Positions 1,897-63,607 of a DNA stretch of 64,000 nt are shown here, in pieces. The DNA comes from a virus. Its lineage: Duplodnaviria; Heunggongvirae; Uroviricota; Caudoviricetes. Location: IMG/VR virus record IMGVR_UViG_2541047857_000014; one strand, written 5' to 3'. The position numbers were made by a program, and so were the translations under genes. Numbering within the stretch: position 1 is the first letter of the stretch; every line of letters starts with the position of its first letter. A model generated the notes under the pieces. It did not search any database and had not been told where the DNA came from. It saw nothing but the letters and a program-made list of their open reading frames with translations.

Positions 1897-4800
1897 GCGT
1901 CGTATCCCCCCTGATCGCTGTAGTTACTCCTGGCTTTTGCCTTCAGCCTGCGTTCACGTTCATCAAGCTGGCGTGCCACCTCCCGCGCAATATCCTGCGC
2001 ACTTTGTCCTGGCTGCGTCTGAATGATGATCTGCGTCGGTGCCTCAATCCGTTGAACGAGTGGCACAGTGGCTGCGCGACTCACAATTGCTTCTCCACCT
2101 TTCGCGGGAAGTGCCAAGGGGTGCAACGGTGGAAGCTCTGCTGGCGCGGCAGCAACGCCCATCATTCCGGCAACAACGGCAGCCAGTGCAGCTGTATTTC
2201 TCCGGCTGGTCACATTTGCCGGGCCGTTAACAATTTCCGGCCCGTTTTCACCGACGATGCCAAACTGCCCGCGCGGGATATACCCGCCGCTGTCATACAT
2301 CCCCGCAAAGCCATATCCCCATGATGGAAAACCACCCGATGGCATCATCACTTTACCGTCTGCATTCACCGTCGCAGGTTGCTGACGCGTCACGCTTTCC
2401 GGCAGTTTTGCCTTTGCGGCCTCTTTACTGACAATGCCGAGCTTCTCCAGCAACCAGGAAACGCCGGATTTCAGGGAGTCCAGCGGATGCATGACCATAT
2501 TCAGCCCTTCCGCCAGTGCCTCCCCGAATCGCCGCCCCATTGCCGCTGCGCTCTGCAGTTCGGCAGAGGTCGACTTAACGGGCGTCAGTAGATCAGTAAA
2601 CCAGCCCCACAGCGCCTGCACTTTGTCGCCAATCCACTGGAACACGGGCTTAAGCGGTTCGAACGCTGCACTGATGGGACCTGCCGCCGCTTTGAATCCT
2701 TCCACCACGCCACCGAGAAATGCGGTGATAGGTTGCCAGTATTTCCAGACAACCAGCGCCACGCCCGCCAGTGCAGTAACCACAAGACCTATCGGACTGA
2801 GCAGAGCACCTAACAGACCAGATATGGCATACAGGGCAACGCGCAGCATCGCCAGTGGACCAGATGCCAGTACTCGCAGCACCGTGCCTGCGGCGGCCAG
2901 TCCACCGCGCAGTACCGCCAGAGGATTCATAAACATCACAGCAACAGCACGTAAACCGGATAATCCAGACCGCAAAAGTGCAACCGGCGCACCTGCTACA
3001 GTTTTCAGGACATTTCCCGTCAGTGATGCCGTGCGGCGCAAAGACGACAACGGCGCAGTAAGTAAACCTGCGGCGTTGCCCGATGAAGCAAGCCCGCGTC
3101 GCAGCAGTGCCAGTGGTGCGCCAGCCAGCCAGGACAACGCGCTGCTGGTTCGAGTTACTGCTGCCGTAACGGAAGATAACGTTTTGATACCCAACACAGA
3201 GAATCCCAGACGGATCACTGCCAGCGGCCCCAGCACTGCAGCCAGCGCCACCGCTAAGGTGCCGAGGCCGACGGTAACCGCAGCCACAACAGCCGATGCT
3301 TTCATCAGTGTGCCTGTCAGTTCCGGGTTAGCTTCCACCCAGCGACGCAACGCCCCCGTGACGCTTTTCACCGTGTACAGAATATCCATCAGCGGCTGGC
3401 GCAGCGTTTCGCCCAGGCTGCTGAAGGTGTTCTGCGCTCCGGTTTTGACCAGCAACCACTGCGCAGAAAGTGAATCCTTGTTAATGTCGGATTCTTTCTG
3501 CATGGAGCCAAGCGCATCATTGCCCGCTGTCAGTTTTAACTGACGCTGCAGTTCCGGCAGGTTGTTTGCCAGTTTCGCCGCGTCATCGCCAAACTCTTTA
3601 CCAAACAACATAGTCATGGCAGACAGGCGCTTGTCCTGCGGCAGCGCGTTTACCTTCTCCAGCACGCGCTGGATGGTTCCCATCGCATCCTTCGTCATCT
3701 GCTTTTCAATCACTTCAGGATTGAGTTTCAGCAGATTCATCCCTTCAAAGAAACTCTTGCTTTGCATGGTGGCAATGGACAATTCACGCACCATCGCGTT
3801 TGCTGCACTGGCTGCAACCTCTGGCGCAGCGCCCAGTGTCAGGAAGGTGGAACCCAGCGCCGCCGCTTTACGATAATCCAGACGGTCAGCCACACCGCCC
3901 AGACGTTGCATCACATCAATGATGTCTGCCCCTTTCGACATGGCGTTATCATCCAGATAGTTCAGCGCATCACCGAGCTGTTCAATATTGCGGGTGGGGA
4001 TTTTGTAGAGCTGGGCGATTTTCCCCAGACTTTCTGACAGTTCATCCGCTGGCAGCTCAAAGGCTGTTGCCGCCTTTGCTGCCGTACTGGCGAAGGCCAG
4101 CAGGTCACGTTTCTGATCTTCCCAGCTGTCGTCAGGGTTTGCGACGTTCATGCGCGCACCACCTTCAACCAGTGCAGCGAAGTCCACCGCACCGTTTTCC
4201 ATCGGCAACTGTTCGCTGGCAGCCTTGATGGCATCCTGCATTTCATAAAAACGTGCAGTGCGGTTGCCATTATCGTCACGCAGACCACTGACCTGCTTTG
4301 CCACACCTTTCATGGCATCTTCCATGCTGGTATAGCTTTTTACTGCCGCCATCACTGGCGCACCCATTGCCAGCCCTGCAGCCGTGGTGGTGGCTCCGGC
4401 ACCTGCAATACGATCACGCACCTCCAGCGAACGGGCATAACTGGCACGCGCTGCATTCATCCTGCGCTGAGCTTCCCCCAGTCGCTTCAGCCGCGCCTCC
4501 TGTTTCGAAAGTTCCTGGTTATAACGTGATGTTTCACGGGCTAAACGGGCAGTTGCTCCCGCATCGTCTTTCGCAGAAATTCCCGCCCGGTACAGTTCAG
4601 CACGCACAAGCGCCGTCTGCCGCTGCAGCTTTTTCTGGCGTTCTTCCAGGCGCTGAACAGCCAGCCGTTGACGGCCCAGAGCAACAACCTGACGTTGCGA
4701 AGGCGGCCCCATCGCTCCCAGTTCCTGACTGAGCAAATTTGCACGCTGGCGGGCATAGTTCAGCCTGTCGCCTAATTTCTGATTTTCTGCCTGCAGCTTT

Positions 4801-4970
4801 CGGAAGCTGTCCAGACTGCTCCCGGCCTGATCAAGCTGCTTTATTGCATCGCGGGATTTTTTGACAGCAGCAGCCAGTTCTCTTGAACTGGCCTGCGCAG
4901 ATCGAAATGGGCGGGTGAGCTTGTCAACCGCATTAAGAATGACCTGCAGACGCAGGTTGTTATCACTCAT
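1893..4970 (-). CDS. T: tail tape measure protein T
   Basis: 1025-aa ORF with coiled-coil N-terminus and Ala/Gly/Leu-rich repetitive membrane-like core; position after E/E'. Confidence 0.85.
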   Translation of the reverse strand: MSDNNLRLQVILNAVDKLTRPFRSAQASSRELAAAVKKSRDAIKQLDQAGSSLDSFRKLQAENQKLGDRLNYARQRANLLSQELGAMGPPSQRQVVALGRQRLAVQRLEERQKKLQRQTALVRAELYRAGISAKDDAGATARLARETSRYNQELSKQEARLKRLGEAQRRMNAARASYARSLEVRDRIAGAGATTTAAGLAMGAPVMAAVKSYTSMEDAMKGVAKQVSGLRDDNGNRTARFYEMQDAIKAASEQLPMENGAVDFAALVEGGARMNVANPDDSWEDQKRDLLAFASTAAKAATAFELPADELSESLGKIAQLYKIPTRNIEQLGDALNYLDDNAMSKGADIIDVMQRLGGVADRLDYRKAAALGSTFLTLGAAPEVAASAANAMVRELSIATMQSKSFFEGMNLLKLNPEVIEKQMTKDAMGTIQRVLEKVNALPQDKRLSAMTMLFGKEFGDDAAKLANNLPELQRQLKLTAGNDALGSMQKESDINKDSLSAQWLLVKTGAQNTFSSLGETLRQPLMDILYTVKSVTGALRRWVEANPELTGTLMKASAVVAAVTVGLGTLAVALAAVLGPLAVIRLGFSVLGIKTLSSVTAAVTRTSSALSWLAGAPLALLRRGLASSGNAAGLLTAPLSSLRRTASLTGNVLKTVAGAPVALLRSGLSGLRAVAVMFMNPLAVLRGGLAAAGTVLRVLASGPLAMLRVALYAISGLLGALLSPIGLVVTALAGVALVVWKYWQPITAFLGGVVEGFKAAAGPISAAFEPLKPVFQWIGDKVQALWGWFTDLLTPVKSTSAELQSAAAMGRRFGEALAEGLNMVMHPLDSLKSGVSWLLEKLGIVSKEAAKAKLPESVTRQQPATVNADGKVMMPSGGFPSWGYGFAGMYDSGGYIPRGQFGIVGENGPEIVNGPANVTSRRNTAALAAVVAGMMGVAAAPAELPPLHPLALPAKGGEAIVSRAATVPLVQRIEAPTQIIIQTQPGQSAQDIAREVARQLDERERRLKAKARSNYSDQGGYDA

Positions 4971-5399
4971 CGTTGGCCCCGCTTCTCTGAATCGCTTTAT
5001 ACCGCCATTCCAGCACTTCGGTCAGCGGCATAACGTCAGTAACGGATGGCGGCCAGTGAAAAATGGTGGCGATATCTGCCACCAGATCGTCAACCGTCAG
5101 GCTGTCGGTAAACCGGCAAGCACCGACTTCTTCAATAAAAAAGTGACAACCTCAACCGACATGGCAGTGAGATCTGCCGGGTCCATCTCTGCAATTTCCT
5201 GTGCAGTCAGTGCCGGACTGGAGATGCGGGAGATCACGGTCATCATCGCGTTTACATCCATATCCATAATGGCCTGCAGGCGTGTACCGCGCAGCGCACC
5301 GGACTGCGGTTTACGCAGCACAATTTCGGTGATTTCTGTTTTACCGCGCTTGATGGGGGTATCCAGTTGAATGGTCTTTTCAGTCTGCTTATCGCTCAT
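4963..5399 (-). CDS. E': E+E' extended chaperone produced by programmed -1 frameshift
   Basis: Slippery T_TTT_TTA in E zero frame at 5136-5142 (minus strand); -1 frame stays open to TGA at 4963-4965, overlapping T start ATG 4968-4970. Confidence 0.6.
5097..5399 (-). CDS. E: tail assembly chaperone E
   Basis: 100-aa ORF directly upstream of T; contains slippery heptamer near 3' end. Confidence 0.8.
   Translation of the reverse strand: MSDKQTEKTIQLDTPIKRGKTEITEIVLRKPQSGALRGTRLQAIMDMDVNAMMTVISRISSPALTAQEIAEMDPADLTAMSVEVVTFLLKKSVLAGLPTA
5136..5142 (-). promoter_or_regulatory. -1 ribosomal frameshift slippery heptamer TTTTTTA (E/E')
   Basis: X_XXY_YYZ pattern in E reading frame, same arrangement as P2 E/E' and other tail chaperone pairs. 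Confidence 0.6.
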
Positions 5400-11362: not shown

Positions 11363-11937
11363 ACCGGGCCTCCGGTTGTATCGCCGCCTTTCAGGACGCC
11401 AGTATGCTGATGCGCATCAACCACGATCCCGTTAGAACTCATCGCACCGCCGCCCTGGGTAACGCCGCCATTGATCACTACTTCACTATTAATACGCGTG
11501 CGGTCAGCCTCCAGCACAAACTCACTGGTTTTCAGGGTGATATTGTCGGCAGCCTCAATAACCATGGATTTGATGCCCCTGACATACCAGCGCCCGGTGG
11601 CGGGTTCGTATTCAAACCAGCCACCGTCAGGATGTTCTGTCACGCAGGCGTCCGCCGACGTCGACGGTGGTGCGAACTGATTCGAATAGACAGCGGGCAG
11701 CGCAAAGGCGGTCTCCAGATTGCCGCCCAGACTCAGCAGCACCACCTGCTCACCTTCCGATGGTCGCCACCATGTCCGGGCATTCCCGGCACGCAGGGTC
11801 AGCCAGCTGATCCAGTTGGTTTCTAAGTCGCCTGTTTTCACCCGACAAAGCCAGTTTTCCCGGTCCACTTCGGTGACTACCCCAGTGCGGATCAGGTTGG
11901 TGATAAGGCGCATGATTTCGGTTAGTTGTGTGTTCAT
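11359..11937 (-). CDS. V: baseplate spike/assembly protein V
   Basis: 192-aa ORF, gpV-like. Confidence 0.8.
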   Translation of the reverse strand: MNTQLTEIMRLITNLIRTGVVTEVDRENWLCRVKTGDLETNWISWLTLRAGNARTWWRPSEGEQVVLLSLGGNLETAFALPAVYSNQFAPPSTSADACVTEHPDGGWFEYEPATGRWYVRGIKSMVIEAADNITLKTSEFVLEADRTRINSEVVINGGVTQGGGAMSSNGIVVDAHQHTGVLKGGDTTGGPV

Positions 11938-11982
11938 GAAAATAGACTGCTATATCTCAAAATTGAGAAGTAGCTTTGATAG

Positions 11983-12000
11983 TTGTATCACGGCTGTCAC
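11983..12000. promoter_or_regulatory. candidate Ogr-dependent late promoter dyad (TGT-N12-ACA) upstream of V
   Basis: tgtatcacggctgtcaca centred ~55 bp upstream of V start codon. Confidence 0.4.
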
Positions 12001-12075
12001 AAACAACTGGCAAAAAACGACTACTATCTATAAATTATTGAGAGTTATCTCATTAACAAAAAAGAAGCTTGGTAA

Positions 12076-13776
12076 ATGGAACACTTAAGACAACTGCAAA
12101 ATAAAACTTCCCTGTTAGAAAAGTACGGGACTAGTAACGCACATCTTTTATGGTCATTAGGTCTTTACTTAGATGAATCCGATTTTGATAAGCTAGCATC
12201 TGATGGACTTACTGATGGTGGAAACGATAAGAAAATAGACTTCATTACCGTAATTAATTCAACGTTATTTATTGCTCAGGGTTACTACTGCAATCAGCAA
12301 GCACTTAAAATAGTTGCGCCTGCAAATAAAGCTTCTGACTTAAACACTGCTTTAGCGTGGATTATGGCAGGCTCAGGAGAGTCTCCAAATGCAAAATTAA
12401 GAGCAAAAATTTCTGAGGTTAGAAAATTAATTGATGATAACGAAATTGAAGCTGTTGAATTATTATATATCCATAATTGTGCCGAATCTGAGCAGGTTAA
12501 AACTGAGCTTGAAACTTGTCGTGACTATCTAGCAGGTAGATTTGCAGACAAAGAAATTGAGGTAACTTACAGAGAACTTGGTGTTAATAGTCTTGAAAAA
12601 TTGTATATTGCGCTATCACAACAAATTGTTGTGACTGACAATATAAAGTTCAATGGCGAACTTATAAATTCTGTACAAGGTGATGGCTGGACTTCACATG
12701 TTGGCTTTGCAAACGGCACTTGGCTAAATTATTTATACAAAAATTATGGAGCAGAATTATTTTCTGCTAATTATAGGGGGTTCATGGGATTAAATAAGAG
12801 AAGAAAAATAAACTCATCAATTAAGAATACCGCAGAAACATCCCCAAAAGACTTCTTTGTCTTTAACAATGGTGTATCAATCCTAACAACAAAATTCAAC
12901 AAAGAAAAAGGGTTGTTGGAAGGAGTTTCAATCATAAATGGAGCTCAAACCACTGGTTCTATTGGTTCAGTTCAAGATATACAAAAATTAGATGGCCTAA
13001 AAGTCCTTTGTAAGGTTATTGAATGTAATGATGCGGACAAAGTAAAAAAAATAGTCCAGTATAATAATACTCAGAATCATATTACAACCTGGGATCACTA
13101 CTCTAACAGCACAGAACAAAAACAGGTGGCAGAAGAATTTTCCACTCTTGGTTATACATATTCACTGAAACGCGGCTTCGAAAATACTGGTTCTTTATTT
13201 GGCATTGAGTCTGTTGCTCAACCGCTGATAGCGTTACATGGGGATTATGTTAGCGCCAATAGAGGTAAAAACTACGTTTTCGATACAAAATCAGCCTATG
13301 ACAATGCCTTTCATGATTCGAAAGCCCAGCATATTTTATGTGCTTACACTATTTCAAAAGCTATAGAAAAAGTAAAATCTCAAATCCGTGCAAAAGAGAA
13401 TAAAATTAAAGTAGATGAGGATAACTTATTATTCCTCCAAAATTTAAAGTCTCGATTCTTTTTAATATCCGTCATCGGAGAAATACTTGAAGAATTAACA
13501 GATAAACCTTTGAACAAGAAGAAAATAAAATATAAATATGATACAGCATTATCTAAAAATAACTCTCTGGATGATTTAATCGACCTTTGGACACCAGTTA
13601 TAACTGCGATATTACCACATGTTATCCGTGTTTCAGGTCAAGATTTAACCACCTACTTATCTGTAACAGACAACCCGTTATCTATCGTATCAAAGGAAGT
13701 TAAAAACATATTAACATCCTTAAAAGCGTTCCAACCGATTGAGCCATTAATTACTCTTTCAAATCACCTTGAATAA
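12076..13776 (+). CDS. cargo gene in S-V hotspot: 566-aa putative abortive-infection/defence protein (AIPR-like by motif memory)
   Basis: Only plus-strand gene inside a minus-strand late operon; visibly AT-rich; own AT-rich upstream region; motifs FFVFNNGVSI and GVSIINGAQTTGS. Confidence 0.6.
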   Translation: MEHLRQLQNKTSLLEKYGTSNAHLLWSLGLYLDESDFDKLASDGLTDGGNDKKIDFITVINSTLFIAQGYYCNQQALKIVAPANKASDLNTALAWIMAGSGESPNAKLRAKISEVRKLIDDNEIEAVELLYIHNCAESEQVKTELETCRDYLAGRFADKEIEVTYRELGVNSLEKLYIALSQQIVVTDNIKFNGELINSVQGDGWTSHVGFANGTWLNYLYKNYGAELFSANYRGFMGLNKRRKINSSIKNTAETSPKDFFVFNNGVSILTTKFNKEKGLLEGVSIINGAQTTGSIGSVQDIQKLDGLKVLCKVIECNDADKVKKIVQYNNTQNHITTWDHYSNSTEQKQVAEEFSTLGYTYSLKRGFENTGSLFGIESVAQPLIALHGDYVSANRGKNYVFDTKSAYDNAFHDSKAQHILCAYTISKAIEKVKSQIRAKENKIKVDEDNLLFLQNLKSRFFLISVIGEILEELTDKPLNKKKIKYKYDTALSKNNSLDDLIDLWTPVITAILPHVIRVSGQDLTTYLSVTDNPLSIVSKEVKNILTSLKAFQPIEPLITLSNHLE

Positions 13777-13778
13777 AT

Positions 13779-13805
13779 AACGGGTGGCCTCCTAGGCCAC
13801 CCGTT
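13779..13805. terminator. bidirectional hairpin terminator between cargo gene and S
   Basis: perfect inverted repeat aacgggtggcc-tccta-ggccacccgtt. Confidence 0.6.
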
Positions 13806-13831
13806 CATAACTTATTTTTAATCTAAAATTT

Positions 13832-14290
13832 TTACGGCTTATTGTTATTAATTAACCATTGATAAAAAACATTCTTAACGTTGTTCTCAATATCATTGTT
13901 AATACCCAACAAACGCCGCTCTGCATACCGTACGTCCGGTCCTTTGCGACTGACGCGATCACGCAGACCGTAATGGTGAACACGGGCAATGCGCTGTACC
14001 TTACCTTCAAACTGCACGCTGGCAGAGTCGGCGCTGGCGGCAGTTTTCAGGTATTTTGTGGTGCGCAGCTTTGCAAACATCTGACGTTTGATACGGCCTT
14101 TTTTACTGCGTGCTGTTACCCGTCGCGGTTCATAGCTGCTGCCGTCAGGGTTGCGCTGCATCCTGATATTCTGCTGCTGTGTCCGGCGAAGTTCCTGCGC
14201 CAGCTGGCGCATCATGCGGCTTCTCGAGGCTGGTTCCAGATTCGCCAGCAAGGCACTCAGCCAGTCGTCCACCTTCTGCAGTTCAGCCAC
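13832..14290 (-). CDS. S: tail completion protein S
   Basis: 152-aa ORF, gpS-like. Confidence 0.8.
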   Translation of the reverse strand: MAELQKVDDWLSALLANLEPASRSRMMRQLAQELRRTQQQNIRMQRNPDGSSYEPRRVTARSKKGRIKRQMFAKLRTTKYLKTAASADSASVQFEGKVQRIARVHHYGLRDRVSRKGPDVRYAERRLLGINNDIENNVKNVFYQWLINNNKP

Positions 14291-58532: not shown

Positions 58533-58648
58533 TCCTGGTTAAATTTCATTTTTCGCGGGTATAAAAAAACGATGGGGCGGGCAGTCCGGAAGACGTCAGG
58601 TCACAGGGATTTGACCCGCCCCTCCCCTCAGAAAGTTGAGAATTATTA

Positions 58649-58999
58649 TCACTTCAGTCGTTCACGGGCCGTCTTCGCCTTATGACACGGCCAGCACAGG
58701 CTCTGCAGATTGCAGTCTGCATCAGTGCCGCCATGCGCTTTAGGGATGATGTGGTCAACGGTTTTCGCCTCACGCACCACACCGACATGCAGGCACAACT
58801 GACACAGGCCTTTGTCACGCTTCAGCACGCGCGCGCGGATAACATCCCACTTCGAACCGTAGCCGCGCTGGTGACGGGATTGTCCTGGCTTGTATTGTTT
58901 CCAGCCTTCGCTTTTGTGGCTTTCACAATAGCCTGACGGATCAGTGGTGGTTTGGCGGCAGCCGCGAACGCGGCAGGCTTTTGGGGTTCGTGGGGGCAT
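58649..58999 (-). CDS. HNH endonuclease
   Basis: 116 aa with CxxC...DHIIPKAHGG...CxxCH motif, upstream of terminase. Confidence 0.8.
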   Translation of the reverse strand: MPPRTPKACRVRGCRQTTTDPSGYCESHKSEGWKQYKPGQSRHQRGYGSKWDVIRARVLKRDKGLCQLCLHVGVVREAKTVDHIIPKAHGGTDADCNLQSLCWPCHKAKTARERLK

Positions 59000-59038
59000 T
59001 TAAAGTGGGATCTAACTCTAATAATTTAAAAAATTTAA

Positions 59039-59542
59039 TTGGGTCTTGATATTAATCACATAGACTCAATGCTCTTTAGTTCTTACATAGGTGGTTGTAT
59101 TATGAGTATCCCCAGTTTAGATGTTCATAAAGTTGTTAAGTGCGCAGAGCATAAAAAGGCTTTAGATGCAATATCTCTCAAACTTAAGAATAACATTATT
59201 GACTCAAGCTCTGAATACGATTTTCTTGGCGACACAATAATTTTCAATAAAGATAAAAAAAATAGGTTAACCCTCAAACTTTCAACATATGAACTAGAAC
59301 TTATTTTCAAAGAAACACTGCTAGTCATTGATGAAGCTCCTGTATTGAAGTTTGCTGCCATTGACCCAACCGATGAAAATAACAACGAGCTGATTGATTT
59401 ATTTTTATCCAAAGGTGGATTTATTTATATTAGAGAATACAAATCCGAGCCACATTATGAGTATGGCGACACTTCTCTATTTTTACATATACTTGACGCT
59501 ACTCTTAAAGAGCTTAAATCTGCAAACAAAATATCCTATTAA
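59039..59542 (+). CDS. AT-rich moron, hypothetical protein
   Basis: 167-aa ORF on opposite strand inside a minus-strand late operon. Confidence 0.45.
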   Translation: MGLDINHIDSMLFSSYIGGCIMSIPSLDVHKVVKCAEHKKALDAISLKLKNNIIDSSSEYDFLGDTIIFNKDKKNRLTLKLSTYELELIFKETLLVIDEAPVLKFAAIDPTDENNNELIDLFLSKGGFIYIREYKSEPHYEYGDTSLFLHILDATLKELKSANKISY

Positions 59543-59648
59543 ATAAATTTTTGCTAACATAGCCCCGCGCCATGACAAGATTTTCTGTTCTAGATGCAAG
59601 GGCTATGTGTGAATATCTATAAACAAAAACCCCATCCGGTGATTTTTG

Positions 59649-59900
59649 TCATTTTTTAGCCATCTCAATTGCGGCATCAAAAAGTCGTTCAAGAATAAAA
59701 TCAGGGTACTGTAATTTTTCTTGCTCGATATGAAGCTCATAAATTTTCCCTTCCCACTCCCATTTAAAATTAAATCCAGAAGCAGAAGGTGCGAAATGTG
59801 TTTTAGCTTTAGGGTTAGCGTAACCAGCAACAGTCAACACATCAAACTTAAAATCTTGAGGTTTAATACGCATAATCATATCCTTTGCCAAGTTCATCAT
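59649..59900 (-). CDS. AT-rich moron, hypothetical protein
   Basis: 83-aa ORF. Confidence 0.4.
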   Translation of the reverse strand: MMNLAKDMIMRIKPQDFKFDVLTVAGYANPKAKTHFAPSASGFNFKWEWEGKIYELHIEQEKLQYPDFILERLFDAAIEMAKK

Positions 59901-59970
59901 TATTCTTCTCGATTATAAAACAATGAATAAAATCATTAAAGCATAGACGTTAAATATCCTCAAAATGTGA

Positions 59971-60408
59971 TTAGTTGGGACATTGCGTCCTGATATACTC
60001 CTGCAAGTAATTGACCTGTGAGGTTATCTTGTCGATTCCACTTCGGAGACGGTAATAATGGAGTTCAGCATCTGCTGTAAGTCTAGGGCTTTCTCCATCG
60101 CCCATGCCGCTGGCTCCGGTCGTTGACTTTGTACAGGTGGCGGCGACTTGCAGGCGCTTATGCCCAGCAGAAACATCAGCACGAAGACTTTCGATAGTCG
60201 CATTAGCATCAGCAAGCTCCTTTGTATATCTGGCATCGAGTTCAGCTACATTACGTTGACGCTTCTGCATATCAGCGATGATGGATGTGGCTTTATCGCG
60301 CTGTACTTTGTAGACGATGGCGTCATCACGGTAATTATCAACAGCCCATGACAAGCAGACGATGATGCAGATAACCAGAGCGGATATAATCACCGTTACT
60401 CTGCTCAT
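59971..60408 (-). CDS. Rz i-spanin
   Basis: 145 aa, N-terminal TM then coiled coil; embedded Rz1. Confidence 0.8.
60024..60203 (-). CDS. Rz1 o-spanin lipoprotein (embedded in Rz)
   Basis: [18 protein letters not shown] lipobox, Pro-rich. Confidence 0.7.
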
Positions 60409-60881
60409 ACCTGAATCTCTTTGACCGTTCCGCCGGCTTCTTTGAATTTTGCAATCAGGCTGTCAGCCTTATGCTCAAACTGACCATAACCAGCTCCCGG
60501 CAGTGAAGCCCAGATATTGCTGCAACGGTCGATAGCCTGACGAATATCACCGCGATCAATCATCGGTAAAGCACCACGCTCTTTAATCTGCTGCAGTGCA
60601 ACAGCATCCTGGCTTTTTGGAGAGAAGTCTTTCAGTCCAAGCTGTTTACGGTATGCATCCCACCAGCGGGAAAGAAGCTGGTAGCGCCCGGCAGCCGTTG
60701 ATTTGAGTTTTGGGTTTAGCGTGACAAGTCTGCGAGGGTGATCGGAGTAATCAGTGAATATTTCTCCGCCCACAATGACGTCATAACCATGATTACGTGT
60801 CGGTTGTAGCCCATTATCCGTTCCTTCTGACCAGGCCACCATATCGAGGAAAGCTTTACGCTGAGGATTAAGATTTTGCAT
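60405..60881 (-). CDS. endolysin (lambda R-like)
   Basis: 158-aa ORF with EGT..G catalytic region near N-terminus. Confidence 0.8.
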
Positions 60882-61272
60882 TTTTCACCCCTGTCAGTCG
60901 TTCCCAGAAGTACGTCAGTGCAACCGAACCCATCGCACCACTAATCCCCGCAGTTGCGAGAATCATGTAAATACTGAATCCACTTTCGATACTGATTAGG
61001 CCACCAATAACACCGGTGAATCCTGATACAACTATCTGAGCGAGGGCATTTATCCAGCTCCACGTTGCTTTACTCTGCTTCACATCAATCAGGTAACGGA
61101 CAAGCCCCCCCCAACCTGCGATGATCAGCAAAACAAGCCAGAACGCTCCGGCAAGATTCTCTTTTTCGTGCATATGAATAGCCGCAGTTTCGCCTCCGAC
61201 AGAAAATCGGAGCGTGAAATGATATGTTGATTTATTATTAATTCGAAAATTACATTCTAATTCATCAGGCAT
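60868..61272 (-). CDS. holin (start uncertain; internal Met at 61173 gives 101 aa)
   Basis: three hydrophobic helices upstream of endolysin. Confidence 0.65.
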   Translation of the reverse strand: MPDELECNFRINNKSTYHFTLRFSVGGETAAIHMHEKENLAGAFWLVLLIIAGWGGLVRYLIDVKQSKATWSWINALAQIVVSGFTGVIGGLISIESGFSIYMILATAGISGAMGSVALTYFWERLTGVKNAKS

Positions 61273-61282
61273 TGATGATTTT

Positions 61283-61320
61283 ATAATAATAAAGGCCGTT
61301 CGTTACGGCCTTTATTATTG
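61283..61320. terminator. bidirectional hairpin
   Basis: aaaggccgt-tcgtt-acggccttt flanked by A/T runs. Confidence 0.5.
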
Positions 61321-61324
61321 ATAT

Positions 61325-61660
61325 TTATTTTACATCCCAAGGTAGTTCCTCAAGAGAGAAGACTAATTCATTATCAATAATTTCGTATTCTGCATAACCT
61401 TCAACCTCTCCTGAGAAGTTATTGTCAACGCATCCTTCATAATAGCTATATGGTGCTATAAAGTGAAACCCATATTCATCTATCTCTGTGATTTCAAAAT
61501 TGTAGTAATCGTAAGAATATCGAATATCATCATCAGAAATAGAACTAAGTACATAGTTATTAAATTTATCGGAATGCTTAACGATAAGTTCTGACAACGC
61601 GTCAAGATTCTCTGGAGAGATATTTCCTAACGGTAATCTGTACTCAACGGCATTAATCAT
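61325..61660 (-). CDS. AT-rich acidic moron protein between tR' and holin
   Basis: 111-aa ORF, very acidic. Confidence 0.45.
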   Translation of the reverse strand: MINAVEYRLPLGNISPENLDALSELIVKHSDKFNNYVLSSISDDDIRYSYDYYNFEITEIDEYGFHFIAPYSYYEGCVDNNFSGEVEGYAEYEIIDNELVFSLEELPWDVK

Positions 61661-61715
61661 ACAACCTCCTTTTTAACTGATATGAGGTTATATAATGTGT
61701 TTCAGTACAAGTAAA

Positions 61716-61739
61716 TAAAAACCCGCTCAACAGCGGGTT
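61716..61739 (-). terminator. tR'-like terminator downstream of Q (site of Q antitermination)
   Basis: aacccgct-caacag-agcgggtt with T-run on minus strand ~110 bp after Q stop. Confidence 0.6.
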
Positions 61740-61845
61740 CGTGAAAATTATCAACGGCAGACATACAAAGCCCATCGTTGAGAAAATCTTATCCATATTT
61801 TTTGAAAAATGCAAGCTTCATGTCACTATCTTCGGCGAAAATCAC

Positions 61846-62598
61846 TTATCTCGTCACCTTTCTCAATTGTGTTTCAGCATATGCTTCTTCCTGCCAGCAC
61901 TTTGTTACTAGTTTATCAATTACGTCTGCATATCCTTTGTACCACTGATAATCAGTCAGGTCTGGAACCAGCTTCTGGACATGACGTCGTGCCAGTGTAG
62001 TCGGTAAACGGCTAAACCGGTTTCCATTGCAACGCCCACAAGTCTTATAAACAGGCGTGCCATGAAGCCGGGTTCTTTTTTCATCCAGGACAATACCTTT
62101 ACCCTTACACCCTCTGCACGCCGTGCTGACTTCTCCCTTGCCATGACAATGCTGACACAGTTCCTTCACCCACTCTTCTTTGATAACGGATTCCCCGCTT
62201 CTGGAATGTTTCACCACTTCGCGCAATACATTATGAAATCCAGTACCAGTACAATGCTCACAGCGAGCCTTACTTGCCGCAGACCTGGAATAATCAGCAA
62301 AGGCAAAATTCACAAGGTAAGGGATGATCTGTAACCGGGTTTCTTCACTCAATTTGTTCAATGTCGGGTTATCCAGTGCCATCGCGTAATTGAGCAGGCC
62401 TTCAATCGCAAACTGAGGATCCTGAACACCAACTTTTGCCAGGAATAAGGCAAACCCAAGCGGTGCTTTCGACTGCACCATCCCCTGCGCAGCCATTACA
62501 TCCGTAATTGTTAAACCACCCGAGCCTGTCGCCGATGCGTCATCGCTCAATTTTGGAGATTTTGGGGAGTAATATTTCGGTAAGGCTTCAAGGTTCAT
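61846..62598 (-). CDS. Q: late antiterminator Q (start at MNLEALPKYY)
   Basis: Cys-rich zinc-binding segments CEHCTGTG...CQHCHGKG...CRGCKGKG...CGRCNG. Confidence 0.7.
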   Translation of the reverse strand: MNLEALPKYYSPKSPKLSDDASATGSGGLTITDVMAAQGMVQSKAPLGFALFLAKVGVQDPQFAIEGLLNYAMALDNPTLNKLSEETRLQIIPYLVNFAFADYSRSAASKARCEHCTGTGFHNVLREVVKHSRSGESVIKEEWVKELCQHCHGKGEVSTACRGCKGKGIVLDEKRTRLHGTPVYKTCGRCNGNRFSRLPTTLARRHVQKLVPDLTDYQWYKGYADVIDKLVTKCWQEEAYAETQLRKVTR

Positions 62599-62611
62599 GC
62601 TCGTTCTCCAC

Positions 62612-63607
62612 TTACACCAGTACGCCAATTGCCAGCGCACGATCGATAAAACGAAATATCAGCTCCAGCTGGGAGCCATACATCTCTTCAAATGCCACGG
62701 TATCCGCATGCAGCTCGTCGTGATGCTTTCTGCACAAAGGCAACACAAAAAGGTCATGCGCTTTTGTACCCATTCCACCCTGTCCGTGGCCTATCAGGTG
62801 GTGGGGATCATCAGCGGGCTTTCCACAACATGCACACGACTGTGTCTTAACCCAGCGCGTGTACTTTTCATTAACCCAGCGGCGACGTTTTGGGCGTAAC
62901 ATAAAAGACTCCGGCGACTCCGGATCCACTTTCAGCGCCAGCACCTTTTTCGCTTTATCCTGGATGATGCTGGTGGCAGGAACCGAAGGCACAAGGTCAC
63001 TTTCCCGGGTGACAGACGGCACAACAGGCTTCGGTAATCTCAGTGCCTTACGGGCTGCACTTTCCGGTAAGGCATCCGCCAGATCATTACGAACCAGCCA
63101 CCAGCACAGTTCCGGCATTGTCACAACGTGACTGTCATCAAAACCGAGATCCCGACGCACAACAGACAACACCCAGCGGGCACAGTTATCCGTTGCCATT
63201 GATTCCAGCCGTTCCGTGAACTGATCGCGAAGCAGGTTATCGCAGTGCCAGCACAGACGGATTGCGCCCGGCGCGTGTCGCATTGTGGTCATGTTCTCGC
63301 TGTGCCATCCGGAATGAGGCCACTGACAGCCCTTTTCACGAAGTAACCAGCTTTCAAGACATTCCACACCCCCCGCACGACGAATAACTGCCTCATTGCG
63401 GAACACGGCCCGAATGGCAGGATCATCCGCCAGCGGTTGTGATGCCGCCGGAACGGCACCACTGGCAAAAGATGAATAACGTTCCGGCTCAGGCTCCAGC
63501 AGGACACGCCCCTGCATAAACAGGGGCATCAGCTCTGAACCGGGCCTGAACAATACGATCCCCATACGCGGGGCAATTTCAGGGGTCAGTAGTGCTCTCA
63601 CGGTCAC
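62612..63607 (-). CDS. DUF968-like lambdoid protein (nin-region)
   Basis: 331-aa ORF with C-terminal CACCGKPADDPHHL...CRKHH motif. Confidence 0.55.
   Translation of the reverse strand: MTVRALLTPEIAPRMGIVLFRPGSELMPLFMQGRVLLEPEPERYSSFASGAVPAASQPLADDPAIRAVFRNEAVIRRAGGVECLESWLLREKGCQWPHSGWHSENMTTMRHAPGAIRLCWHCDNLLRDQFTERLESMATDNCARWVLSVVRRDLGFDDSHVVTMPELCWWLVRNDLADALPESAARKALRLPKPVVPSVTRESDLVPSVPATSIIQDKAKKVLALKVDPESPESFMLRPKRRRWVNEKYTRWVKTQSCACCGKPADDPHHLIGHGQGGMGTKAHDLFVLPLCRKHHDELHADTVAFEEMYGSQLELIFRFIDRALAIGVLV

What the first reader, a model, noticed from the sequence alone, without database searches (positions are those of the whole stretch)
59039..59900. Convergent pair of AT-rich morons between the lysis cassette and the HNH/terminase genes
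A 167-aa plus-strand ORF and an 83-aa minus-strand ORF, both markedly AT-rich and without recognisable domains, interrupt an otherwise uniform minus-strand late operon. A convergent two-gene arrangement inside a late region suggests independently regulated cargo, such as a toxin-antitoxin or superinfection-exclusion pair.
Basis: inference. Interest (0 to 1): 0.45.

Follow-up and report, generated by a model that had tools for sequence, protein, structure and literature searches.

The report
Two unrelated prophage cargo genes side by side
The two AT-rich genes between the lysis and DNA-packaging genes of this E. coli prophage are real and conserved, but they are two separate add-on genes ("morons") of unknown function that happen to be neighbours, not a toxin-antitoxin or exclusion pair.

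Summary
A 0.97-kb segment (59000-59970) has 33% GC against 48-56% in its flanks. It carries a plus-strand ORF and a minus-strand ORF, between the spanin gene and the HNH/terminase genes of an SfV-like prophage of ST95-type E. coli (S88, UTI89).

Three corrections:
- The real genes are 146 aa (59102-59542, +) and 74 aa (59649-59873, -).
- Only the 146-aa gene is antisense. The 74-aa gene runs with the late operon.
- They are not a co-inherited pair.

The 74-aa family (Escherichia, Enterobacter, Citrobacter, Pantoea) always lies sense, downstream of the spanin genes. It has a conserved -10 box and a hairpin/T-run terminator, and occurs with several terminase types and without the 146-aa gene. 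The 146-aa family (Escherichia, Salmonella, Citrobacter, Atlantibacter) always lies antisense beside HNH/TerL packaging modules, without the 74-aa gene.

Phage SfV has nothing in this slot, and related prophages carry other cargo there. Both families are under purifying selection and encode soluble proteins. Neither matches Pfam, PHROG, NCBIfam, PADLOC, PDB or any sequenced phage.

The 146-aa gene is frameshifted at an A8 run in about 40% of carrier genomes, while the 74-aa gene stays intact. This argues against a toxin-antitoxin pair.

Verdict: two ordinary morons in a cargo hotspot, biochemical function unknown, modest interest.

The parts
59000..59970 (.). AT-rich cargo island between the HNH start codon (58999) and the Rz stop codon (59971). 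It is absent from phage SfV and some related prophages.
   Evidence: GC is 0.329 against 0.555 and 0.478 in the flanks, in the lowest 1.1% of same-size windows. The slot is empty in SfV, 720R4 and ETEC1718. The island is present at >=99.7% identity in 105 of 5426 complete E. coli genomes.
59102..59542 (+). 146-aa gene (WP_000026993.1, old tag ECS88_2890), antisense to the late operon. The product is soluble, mildly acidic and predicted as a helix / 7-strand sheet / helix sandwich.
   Evidence: RefSeq call. GGTGG ribosome-binding site 7 nt before the ATG. Homologues of 143-146 aa at 30-64% identity in Salmonella, Citrobacter and Atlantibacter prophages, always antisense beside HNH/terS/TerL. 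dN/dS is 0.22-0.43. AlphaFold2 pLDDT 84.8, pTM 0.76. pI is about 5 with no membrane segment.
59039..59101 (+). 5' extension of the mechanical 167-aa ORF (TTG start), probably not translated. It lies in the region where the promoter of the 146-aa gene must be.
   Evidence: No homologue has this extension. The window and the Salmonella/Citrobacter-type loci share the blocks TTGATA/TTGATG and CTCAATG here, but no clean -10 box. The consensus scan found no promoter.
59255..59262 (+). A8 homopolymer inside the 146-aa gene, a recurrent frameshift site.
   Evidence: A8 to A7 truncates the product to 55 aa in UTI89. 24 of 58 evenly sampled carrier genomes, UM146, APEC O1 and the UTI89 records among them, have an island one base shorter, as the UTI89 allele is, and NU14 shows the same one-base-shorter match. 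The same slip occurs in a variant island that differs by 28 substitutions. P0002 has an in-frame codon loss at this site.
59557..59608 (.). Long hairpin (9-10 bp outer stem, CATAGCCCC...GGGGCTATG) 15 nt after the 146-aa stop codon.
   Evidence: RNA folds of both strands. The minus strand gives -32.5 kcal/mol, z = -3.9, with 0 of 200 shuffles as stable. Every family member has a hairpin right after the stop codon.
59622..59650 (.). A-tract / short GC stem / T-tract hairpin overlapping the 74-aa stop codon. It looks like a bidirectional intrinsic terminator and is a weakened copy of the family's strong terminator.
   Evidence: In 9 of 10 other loci the stop codon is followed by a GC-rich hairpin and a T-run, most often GCCGCC-loop-GGCGG-TTTTTT; in L045 the hairpin lies about 40 nt further on. 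The simple terminator scan did not call the window's copy.
59649..59873 (-). 74-aa gene (WP_001220676.1), same strand as the late operon, 97 nt downstream of Rz. The product is a small soluble alpha-beta3-alpha protein.
   Evidence: RefSeq call. AAGGA ribosome-binding site. Homologues of 72-74 aa in Enterobacter asburiae, Citrobacter freundii, Pantoea latae and metagenomes, all in sense orientation after the spanin genes. dN/dS is 0.03-0.17 where measurable. AlphaFold2 pLDDT 67.7.
59912..59917 (-). Perfect -10 hexamer TATAAT, 38 nt upstream of the 74-aa start codon. A weak -35 (TTTAAT) lies at 59935-59940.
   Evidence: TATAAT sits at the same distance (about 35-45 nt) in 7 of 11 loci whose intergenic sequence is otherwise diverged. 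Three others have GATAAT or TAGAAT and L005 has no match. The 97% variant island has TATTCT. It was not called by the consensus scan because the -35 matches only 3 of 6.
58649..58999 (-). HNH endonuclease gene, the left boundary of the slot and the first gene of the packaging module (HNH, P27-family terS, TerL, portal).
59971..60408 (-). Rz-type spanin gene (PF03245) with an embedded Rz1-like lipoprotein ORF (60024-60236). It is the right boundary of the slot. The lysis cassette is complete without the 74-aa gene.
   Evidence: The embedded ORF has a hydrophobic leader and an ISAC lipobox.

Best explanation
The interval holds two unrelated morons that are mobile separately. They sit next to each other in a cargo hotspot between the lysis cassette and the HNH/terminase packaging module of an SfV-like prophage.

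Moron 1 (74 aa, sense):
- It has its own sigma-70 promoter (TATAAT) and an intrinsic terminator.
- It can therefore be made from the repressed prophage. After induction it would also be made by Q-antiterminated late transcription reading through it.

Moron 2 (146 aa, antisense):
- It is transcribed against the late operon from the HNH-proximal spacer, and its transcript ends at the hairpins in the 106-nt convergent spacer.
- It would therefore be expressed in the lysogen and shut down by head-on late transcription after induction. Lambda bor, which occupies the equivalent position, is arranged the same way.

Products:
- Both are small, soluble, mildly acidic alpha/beta proteins with no catalytic motif, so they most likely act by binding another macromolecule.
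- The most probable payoff is a lysogen-level benefit, either interference with competing phages or mobile elements, or modulation of the host.
- For the 146-aa gene that benefit is dispensable in E. coli.

Shown: the anatomy, the independent distribution, purifying selection, absence from related phages, and the recurrent frameshift.
Inferred: promoter activity, expression timing, action by binding, and any defence or fitness role.
For: Insertion relative to relatives:
- SfV, vB_EcoM-720R4 and an ETEC prophage have the Rz1 stop about 26 bp from the HNH start.
- Other E. coli prophages with the same HNH carry a 229-aa protein, a 111-aa antisense protein or an 817-aa autotransporter in this slot.

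Foreign composition:
- GC is 0.33 against about 0.5.
- 146-family genes are 0.30-0.35 GC in every host locus, and 74-family genes 0.36-0.43.

Independence of the two genes:
- The 74 family sits in sense orientation after the spanin genes, in loci with Terminase_2/6N, Terminase_3 or P27 terminases, and without the 146 gene.
- The 146 family sits antisense next to HNH plus a PF03354 TerL, with at least four different lysis cassettes, and without the 74 gene.
- The two co-occur only in the E. coli island and its 97% variant.

Own transcription signals:
- 74 family: conserved TATAAT, AAAGGA ribosome-binding site, and a hairpin with T-run.
- 146 family: a hairpin after every stop codon, and TATAAT upstream in the Atlantibacter locus (L013) and in L033.
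- The window's spacer is structured.

Real genes:
- dN/dS is 0.22-0.43 for the 146 family and 0.03-0.17 for the 74 family.
- The 146-aa AlphaFold2 model is confident.
- Both proteins are soluble.
Against: - No expression data exist, and no paper mentions these genes.
- The consensus scan found no promoter for either gene in the window.
- The promoter of the E. coli-type 146-aa gene could not be pinned down.
- The window's copy of the 74-aa terminator is degenerate.
- The 146-aa family's constant linkage to HNH-type packaging modules, and the 74-aa family's constant place after the spanins, could reflect a role in the phage's own cycle rather than plain cargo.
Confidence: 0.72

Rival explanations
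1. One reading: the two convergent genes form one functional unit, either a toxin-antitoxin module or a two-component superinfection-exclusion or abortive-infection pair.
For: They are adjacent, both AT-rich and both of unknown function. They travel together in 105 E. coli genomes and in a 97% variant island. The convergent layout would allow antisense cross-talk across a 106-nt structured spacer.
Against: - Outside that one lineage the families never co-occur, across at least 7 distinct 146-family contexts and at least 9 distinct 74-family contexts.
- The 146-aa gene is frameshifted in about 40% of carriers with the 74-aa gene untouched. The slip arose at least twice.
- There is no hit to any toxin, antitoxin or PADLOC model. 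The weak PDC-M24A hit appears in only 2 of 8 members.
- Type II pairs are co-directional operons, and these genes converge.
- Neither protein has a membrane segment.
Confidence: 0.04
2. The 74-aa gene is a lysis accessory or late-function gene that belongs to the lysis cassette, for example a regulator of spanin or endolysin action. It would not be cargo.
For: It is always on the late strand and downstream of the spanin genes. In most loci it lies only 60-120 bp after them. It is very strongly conserved, with dN/dS of 0.03-0.17.
Against: - It has its own conserved -10 box and a strong terminator, which an operon-internal gene does not need.
- SfV-type phages with full lysis cassettes lack it.
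- The window's cassette already has holin, endolysin, Rz and an embedded Rz1.
- In L044, L045 and L047 other cargo separates it from the spanins.
- It has no membrane segment or signal peptide.
- No sequenced phage in 50,697 records carries it.
Confidence: 0.1
3. The 146-aa gene serves the HNH/terminase packaging module or the infecting genome's leading end. It might be an early-expressed counter-defence or anti-satellite factor placed near cos, rather than a lysogen-benefit gene.
For: - In every context it lies beside an HNH-terS-TerL(PF03354)-portal module, whatever the lysis cassette.
- In SfV the genome end lies just beyond HNH, so the gene is within about 0.5 kb of the right end.
Against: - Physical linkage to the neighbouring module is expected for any moron without a functional link.
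- Its orientation is against late transcription.
- It is absent from SfV, SfIV and 720R4, which package normally.
- Recurrent frameshifts in otherwise intact-looking prophages show it is not needed.
Confidence: 0.1
4. One or both ORFs are non-functional leftovers or chance ORFs in AT-rich DNA.
For: - AT-rich DNA yields long ORFs easily, and overlapping ORFs of 95 and 75 aa occur on the opposite strands here.
- The 146-aa gene is a pseudogene in many strains.
- Both families are tiny, with about 6 and about 15 clusters among billions of proteins.
Against: - Homologues down to 30-33% identity keep length, frame and position across genera.
- dN/dS is well below 1.
- Ribosome-binding sites are conserved.
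- AlphaFold2 gives a confident 146-aa fold from only 6 sequences.
Confidence: 0.04

Closest known systems
Morons of lambdoid and HK97-like phages (Hendrix/Juhala concept; definition as quoted in PMC2629481)
   Same: Each is a gene, or a few genes, present in one phage and absent at the same place in close relatives. They sit between two late-operon genes, have deviant base composition, and carry their own promoter and terminator. The 74-aa family fits this almost textbook-fashion.
   Different: Promoter activity has not been measured. The products belong to no described moron family, and no PHROG or Pfam model matches.
Lambda bor (my own knowledge: a lipoprotein gene antisense to the late operon just downstream of Rz, expressed in lysogens)
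   Same: The 146-aa gene has the same position class and orientation. It is antisense, between the spanin genes and the packaging genes, and is presumably prophage-expressed.
   Different: There is no sequence similarity, no signal peptide and no lipobox. It is a soluble cytoplasmic protein. It is not a Bor family member.
P22 'ant moron' with sieA, and other variable late-operon cargo slots (PMC2629481)
   Same: Both are single late-operon positions that hold different gene sets in different relatives and turn over quickly. Here the slot holds nothing, a 229-aa protein, a 111-aa antisense protein, an autotransporter, or these two genes.
   Different: The slot is different (lysis/packaging junction, not head/tailspike junction), and there are no immunity-I or sieA homologues.
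Frataxin/CyaY-type and RWD/UBC-type alpha-beta sandwiches (fold level only)
Type II toxin-antitoxin modules
   Same: Two small adjacent genes on a mobile element.
   Different: They are convergent rather than an operon, are distributed independently, and have no family hits. One partner is lost repeatedly with no effect on the other.

Membership tests
Moron (independently transcribed insertion in a phage operon) | Absent at the same position in closely related phages | tested here: met
   SfV, vB_EcoM-720R4 and the ETEC1718 prophage have Rz1 directly followed by HNH. Other relatives carry different genes there.
Moron (independently transcribed insertion in a phage operon) | Base composition unlike the surrounding operon | tested here: met
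   GC is 0.33 against 0.48-0.56 in the window. Homologues show the same contrast in other hosts.
Moron (independently transcribed insertion in a phage operon) | Own promoter | tested here: inconclusive
   74-aa gene: TATAAT is conserved at a fixed distance in 7 of 11 loci, with near-matches in 3 more, but the -35 is weak and no transcript data exist. 146-aa gene: TATAAT is present in two distant loci only, and the E. coli type has no clean box.
Moron (independently transcribed insertion in a phage operon) | Own terminator | tested here: met
   74 family: a GC hairpin plus T-run follows the stop codon in 9 of 10 other loci, directly in most and about 40 nt downstream in L045, and the window has a weaker copy. 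146 family: a hairpin follows every stop codon, with a T-run in the Atlantibacter and C. koseri loci.
Type II toxin-antitoxin pair | Two genes inherited together as one operon | tested here: not met
   The genes converge, and the families co-occur only in one E. coli lineage.
Type II toxin-antitoxin pair | Homology to a known toxin or antitoxin superfamily | tested here: not met
   No Pfam, NCBIfam or PADLOC hit for any family member.
Type II toxin-antitoxin pair | One product toxic, neutralised by the other | not testable with these tools
   This needs expression tests. Indirectly, loss of the 146-aa gene in about 40% of carriers leaves the 74-aa gene intact and the strains viable.
Membrane-type superinfection exclusion proteins (SieA/SieB, T4 Imm/Sp, HK97 gp15, Cor; features from my own knowledge) | Membrane segment or lipoprotein/secretion signal | tested here: not met
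   The maximum 19-residue Kyte-Doolittle hydropathy is 1.43 or lower in all members of both families, and both are hydrophilic (GRAVY below 0).
Bor-type lipoprotein morons | Signal peptide with lipobox, and Bor homology | tested here: not met
   No Pfam hit and no hydrophobic N-terminus. Only position and orientation resemble bor.
Lysis cassette accessory proteins (antiholin, spanin subunits, LysA-type) | Membrane or lipoprotein topology and presence wherever the cassette type occurs | tested here: not met
   The 74-aa protein is soluble. It is absent from SfV-type cassettes and from all 50,697 phage records. The window's cassette already has holin, endolysin, Rz and Rz1.
Known anti-phage defence systems (PADLOC-DB v2) | Significant match to a defence protein model | tested here: not met
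   The only hit is PDC-M24A at E = 0.006-0.016 over 31 residues, in 2 of 8 members of the 146 family. The 74 family has none.

The most novel reading that the evidence does not exclude
The 146-aa family is an unrecognised single-protein function of HNH/cos-type (HK97-like) temperate phages of Enterobacteriaceae. It would be a lysogen-expressed soluble factor that blocks competing phages or satellites that exploit HNH/terminase packaging. Its expression would be switched on and off by slippage at an internal A8 run, which would explain why the same frameshift arose at least twice. The 74-aa family could likewise be a new, highly conserved small inhibitor protein made from a constitutive moron promoter.
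Probability: 0.15. Interest if true: 0.55.

Novelty: new member of a known kind. Interest (0 to 1): 0.25.

Why it matters
If the reading is right, the finding is mainly a clean worked example. A lysis/packaging junction in SfV-like and P22-like prophages acts as a cargo hotspot, and adjacency of two orphan genes there does not imply a two-gene system.

The practical value is modest. It defines two small, conserved, uncharacterised protein families of enterobacterial prophages. One of them is present in the ST95 ExPEC/APEC/NMEC lineage, with an intact allele and a frameshifted allele. These are cheap to test for phage-resistance or fitness phenotypes.

The recurrent A8 frameshift gives natural on/off alleles for such tests.

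Tried and rejected
Searches that found nothing useful:
- Domain searches of both window proteins, and of every family member separately, against Pfam, PHROGs, NCBIfam and PADLOC gave nothing significant.
- Profile searches against PDB sequences gave only noise.
- tblastn against 50,697 phage records and 72,556 plasmids found no match for either protein.
- An Rfam scan of 58600-62000 gave only sub-threshold noise.
- A degenerate-pattern scan of species-representative genomes with the 146-aa profile confirmed no relatives.
- The Foldseek AFDB50 library was not available.
- Literature searches for accessions and locus tags returned nothing. A Gifsy defence paper turned out to concern an unrelated STAND NTPase.
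- I could not locate the Burkholderia phage Mana gene that matched structurally, because no sequence or accession was available.

Ideas considered and dropped:
- Fold searches gave only generic alpha/beta-sandwich matches: frataxin, UBC/RWD and type III secretion chaperones for the 146-aa model, and ribosome hibernation factor, T7 gp1.2 and a designed protein for the 74-aa model. I did not treat these as homology.
- The PADLOC PDC-M24A hit was rejected as noise because only the two near-identical E. coli members show it.
- I looked for flanking direct or inverted repeats that would mark an insertion mechanism and found none of note.
- A CRP-like TGTGA motif near the -35 of the 74-aa promoter has the wrong spacing, so I dropped it.
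- My own ORF caller suggested the 74-aa gene was broken in the variant island L039.
Full report
**What is there**

The window's right end is an apparently complete SfV/e14-like prophage. It is identical to one in E. coli S88 and MS7163. Its late operon runs on the minus strand in this order: Q (61846-62640), a 111-aa ORF, holin, GH24 endolysin, Rz with an embedded Rz1-like lipoprotein ORF, then HNH, P27-family terS, TerL and portal.

A 971-bp segment lies between the Rz stop (59971) and the HNH start (58999). Its GC is 0.329, against 0.555 and 0.478 in the flanks. That places it in the lowest 1.1% of same-sized windows in the 64-kb sequence.

The probable genes are shorter than those ORFs:
- The plus-strand gene is 59102-59542, 146 aa, with a GGTGG ribosome-binding site.
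- The minus-strand gene is 59649-59873, 74 aa, with an AAGGA site.
- Both agree with the RefSeq annotation and with the length of all homologues.

Only the 146-aa gene is antisense to the operon. The 74-aa gene runs with it.

**Are they real genes?**

Both families are very small.
- The 146-aa protein found 4 clusters in a 5.8-billion-protein index. An exhaustive profile search of 1.84 billion representatives found 6.
- The 74-aa protein found about 15 clusters.

Even so, homologues reach 30-33% identity while keeping length and frame.

By the sources' own names, the hosts are:
- 146 family: E. coli, Salmonella enterica, Citrobacter freundii, C. gillenii and C. koseri, and Atlantibacter hermannii.
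- 74 family: E. coli, Enterobacter asburiae, Citrobacter freundii and Pantoea latae.

Nei-Gojobori estimates give dN/dS of 0.22-0.43 for the 146 family. For the 74 family they give 0.03-0.17, with synonymous sites mostly saturated.

AlphaFold2 results:
- The 146-aa protein folds confidently from six sequences (pLDDT 84.8, pTM 0.76). The model has a long N-terminal helix, a seven-stranded antiparallel sheet and a C-terminal helix.
- The 74-aa model is weaker (pLDDT 67.7) and has a helix / three strands / helix layout.

Both proteins are hydrophilic and mildly acidic, and neither has a membrane segment. They are genes, not chance ORFs.

**Are they a pair?**

No. I collected genomic contexts from assemblies and from IMG/VR.

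The 74-aa family:
- It is always on the late-operon strand, downstream of the spanin genes and upstream of the terminase.
- It occurs in phages with Terminase_2/6N, Terminase_3 or P27-type terminases.
- In none of those loci is a 146-aa homologue present. Its neighbours there are other small genes: an antisense DUF2158 gene, 65-aa and 206-aa antisense genes, or nothing.

The 146-aa family:
- It is always antisense, beside an HNH-terS-TerL(PF03354)-portal module.
- At least four different lysis cassettes lie on its other side (GH24+Rz; GH19 with holin_3_7/holin_8; a 159-aa lysin; a lysozyme with a different Rz).
- It never has a 74-aa homologue next to it.

The two co-occur only in the E. coli island and in a 97%-identical variant of it.

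**The slot**

Phage SfV, phage vB_EcoM-720R4 and an ETEC prophage carry the same HNH gene, and there the Rz1 stop lies about 26 bp from the HNH start.

Other E. coli prophages of this type hold different cargo in the slot:
- a 229-aa protein in sense orientation;
- a 111-aa protein in antisense orientation;
- an 817-aa autotransporter.

In one 74-family locus a DUF6932 gene plus a 306-aa gene sit between the spanin and the 74-aa gene. The lysis/packaging junction is therefore a cargo hotspot, and the window's island is an insertion relative to SfV.

**Transcription signals**

*74-aa family.* Upstream sequence is otherwise diverged, yet several features are kept:
- A perfect TATAAT sits about 35-45 nt before the start codon in 7 of 11 loci. 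Three more have GATAAT or TAGAAT.
- An AAAGGA ribosome-binding site is invariant.
- In 9 of 10 other loci the stop codon is followed by a GC-rich hairpin and a T-run, most often GCCGCC-loop-GGCGG-TTTTTT.

In the window the -10 box is at 59912-59917 with a weak -35 (TTTAAT). The terminator is a weakened A-tract / short stem / T-tract hairpin at 59622-59650. This is the classical moron layout, as defined in PMC2629481.

*146-aa family.*
- Every member has a hairpin just after the stop codon.
- Two distant members have a TATAAT upstream.
- For the E. coli type I could not identify a clean promoter.

The window's convergent spacer folds significantly better than shuffled sequence (z = -3.9 on the minus strand).

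**Population picture**

The island occurs in 105 of 5426 complete E. coli genomes, all at 99.7% identity or more. The carriers include S88, UTI89, UM146, APEC O1, NU14, IMT5155 and the type strain ATCC 11775.

Inactivation of the 146-aa gene:
- 24 of 58 evenly sampled carriers have an island one base shorter. In UTI89, the carrier examined base by base, the missing base lies in an A8 run (59255-59262) and the product is truncated to 55 aa.
- The truncated product is recorded on 871 contigs. The intact one is on at least 1000, the counting cap.
- The same A8 to A7 slip is present in the variant island, which differs by 28 substitutions. It has therefore happened at least twice.
- One relative has an in-frame codon loss at the same site.
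- Two genomes have only the first 167-237 bases of the query, up to window 59186. In the one examined (APEC E18006) an IS1 element follows that break.

The 74-aa gene is intact in the carriers examined (UTI89 and the variant island), and every one of the 58 sampled full-length carrier records has at least one annotated gene under the island.

This pattern does not fit an addictive toxin-antitoxin pair. It shows that the 146-aa gene is dispensable, or even costly, in E. coli.

**Function**

No sequence-based resource recognises either family:
- Pfam, PHROGs, NCBIfam and PADLOC, with each member scanned separately;
- PDB profile searches;
- 50,697 phage genomes and 72,556 plasmids by tblastn;
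- the literature.

Fold searches:
- BFVD gives one convincing structural neighbour, an uncharacterised 151-aa protein of Burkholderia phage Mana with TM-score 0.72.
- The 74-aa model matches only generic alpha-beta3-alpha proteins.

I therefore commit only to the following, as inference:
- Each gene is an autonomous transcription unit.
- The antisense 146-aa gene is a lysogen-expressed gene that is silenced by head-on late transcription after induction, as lambda bor is arranged.
- The sense 74-aa gene is made both from its own promoter and by late read-through.
- Both products act by binding, not catalysis.

My rough odds for the payoff:
- about 35% interference with competing phages or mobile elements;
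- about 25% host modulation;
- about 20% a role in the phage's own cycle;
- the remainder unknown.

**Comparison with known systems**

The best label is moron. Absence from relatives, deviant composition and an own terminator were tested and met. The own promoter is supported by conservation for the 74-aa gene but not demonstrated.

The 146-aa gene resembles lambda bor in position and orientation only. It has no lipoprotein signal and no homology.

Membership was tested and not met for:
- toxin-antitoxin pairs;
- membrane-type exclusion proteins;
- lysis accessories;
- catalogued defence systems.

**Verdict**

The finding is two new members of a well-known kind of element, with unknown biochemistry. 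Interest is modest (0.25). The most interesting loose ends are the 146-aa family's strict association with HNH-type packaging modules, and its recurrent homopolymer frameshift.

Noticed in passing
window 61325-61660 (-): A third AT-rich ORF (111 aa, GC about 0.32-0.34) lies between the Q antiterminator gene and the holin gene. It matches phrog_13663 (unknown function) at E = 9e-54. It looks like another moron in the same late operon, at the Q/holin junction.
   Followed up: partly
window 59255-59262: An A8 run inside the 146-aa gene is a recurrent slip site. A8 to A7 occurs in the UTI89 allele and again in a variant island that differs by 28 substitutions, and about 40% of sampled carriers (UM146 and APEC O1 among them) have an island one base shorter. 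One relative has an in-frame codon loss at the same site. This is either possible phase variation or repeated gene loss.
   Followed up: partly
window ~59186; L018 (E. coli APEC E18006) 4237-4950: In APEC E18006 an IS1 element sits inside the 146-aa gene, and the prophage DNA from there to the yfdR/integrase end is missing. Strain ZJ3920 breaks off at the same base (its junction was not examined).
   Followed up: partly
window 60024-60236 (-): A 70-aa ORF embedded out of frame in the Rz gene has a hydrophobic leader and an ISAC lipobox. It is an Rz1-type outer-membrane spanin that the RefSeq annotation of S88 does not list.
   Followed up: no
L044 2385-3909: In one 74-aa-family locus a two-gene insertion (a 203-aa DUF6932 protein and a 306-aa protein with no Pfam match) sits between the spanin genes and the 74-aa gene. 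This is another candidate cargo or defence module in the same hotspot.
   Followed up: partly
L022 3171-5624 (E. coli 160-11H1): In a related E. coli prophage the same Rz/HNH slot holds an 817-aa autotransporter outer-membrane protein gene in sense orientation.
   Followed up: no
window ~11700-14230, 22120-24440, 31480-33980, 35980-38680: Four further low-GC islands (minimum 0.30-0.39) lie upstream in the window. By the S88 annotation the last two lie next to a P2-like remnant, in a stretch that carries a 407-aa hypothetical protein after an integrase, plus GIY-YIG, DUF262 and PD-(D/E)XK nuclease genes. These are possible defence cargo.
   Followed up: no
L003 6521-6712, L010 5308-5505, L047 ~5250-5330: In Enterobacter- and Citrobacter-type loci the 74-aa gene's terminator is followed by a conserved antisense small gene (63-65 aa, DUF2158). 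This repeats the sense-moron / antisense-moron layout seen in the window, but with a different antisense partner.
   Followed up: no
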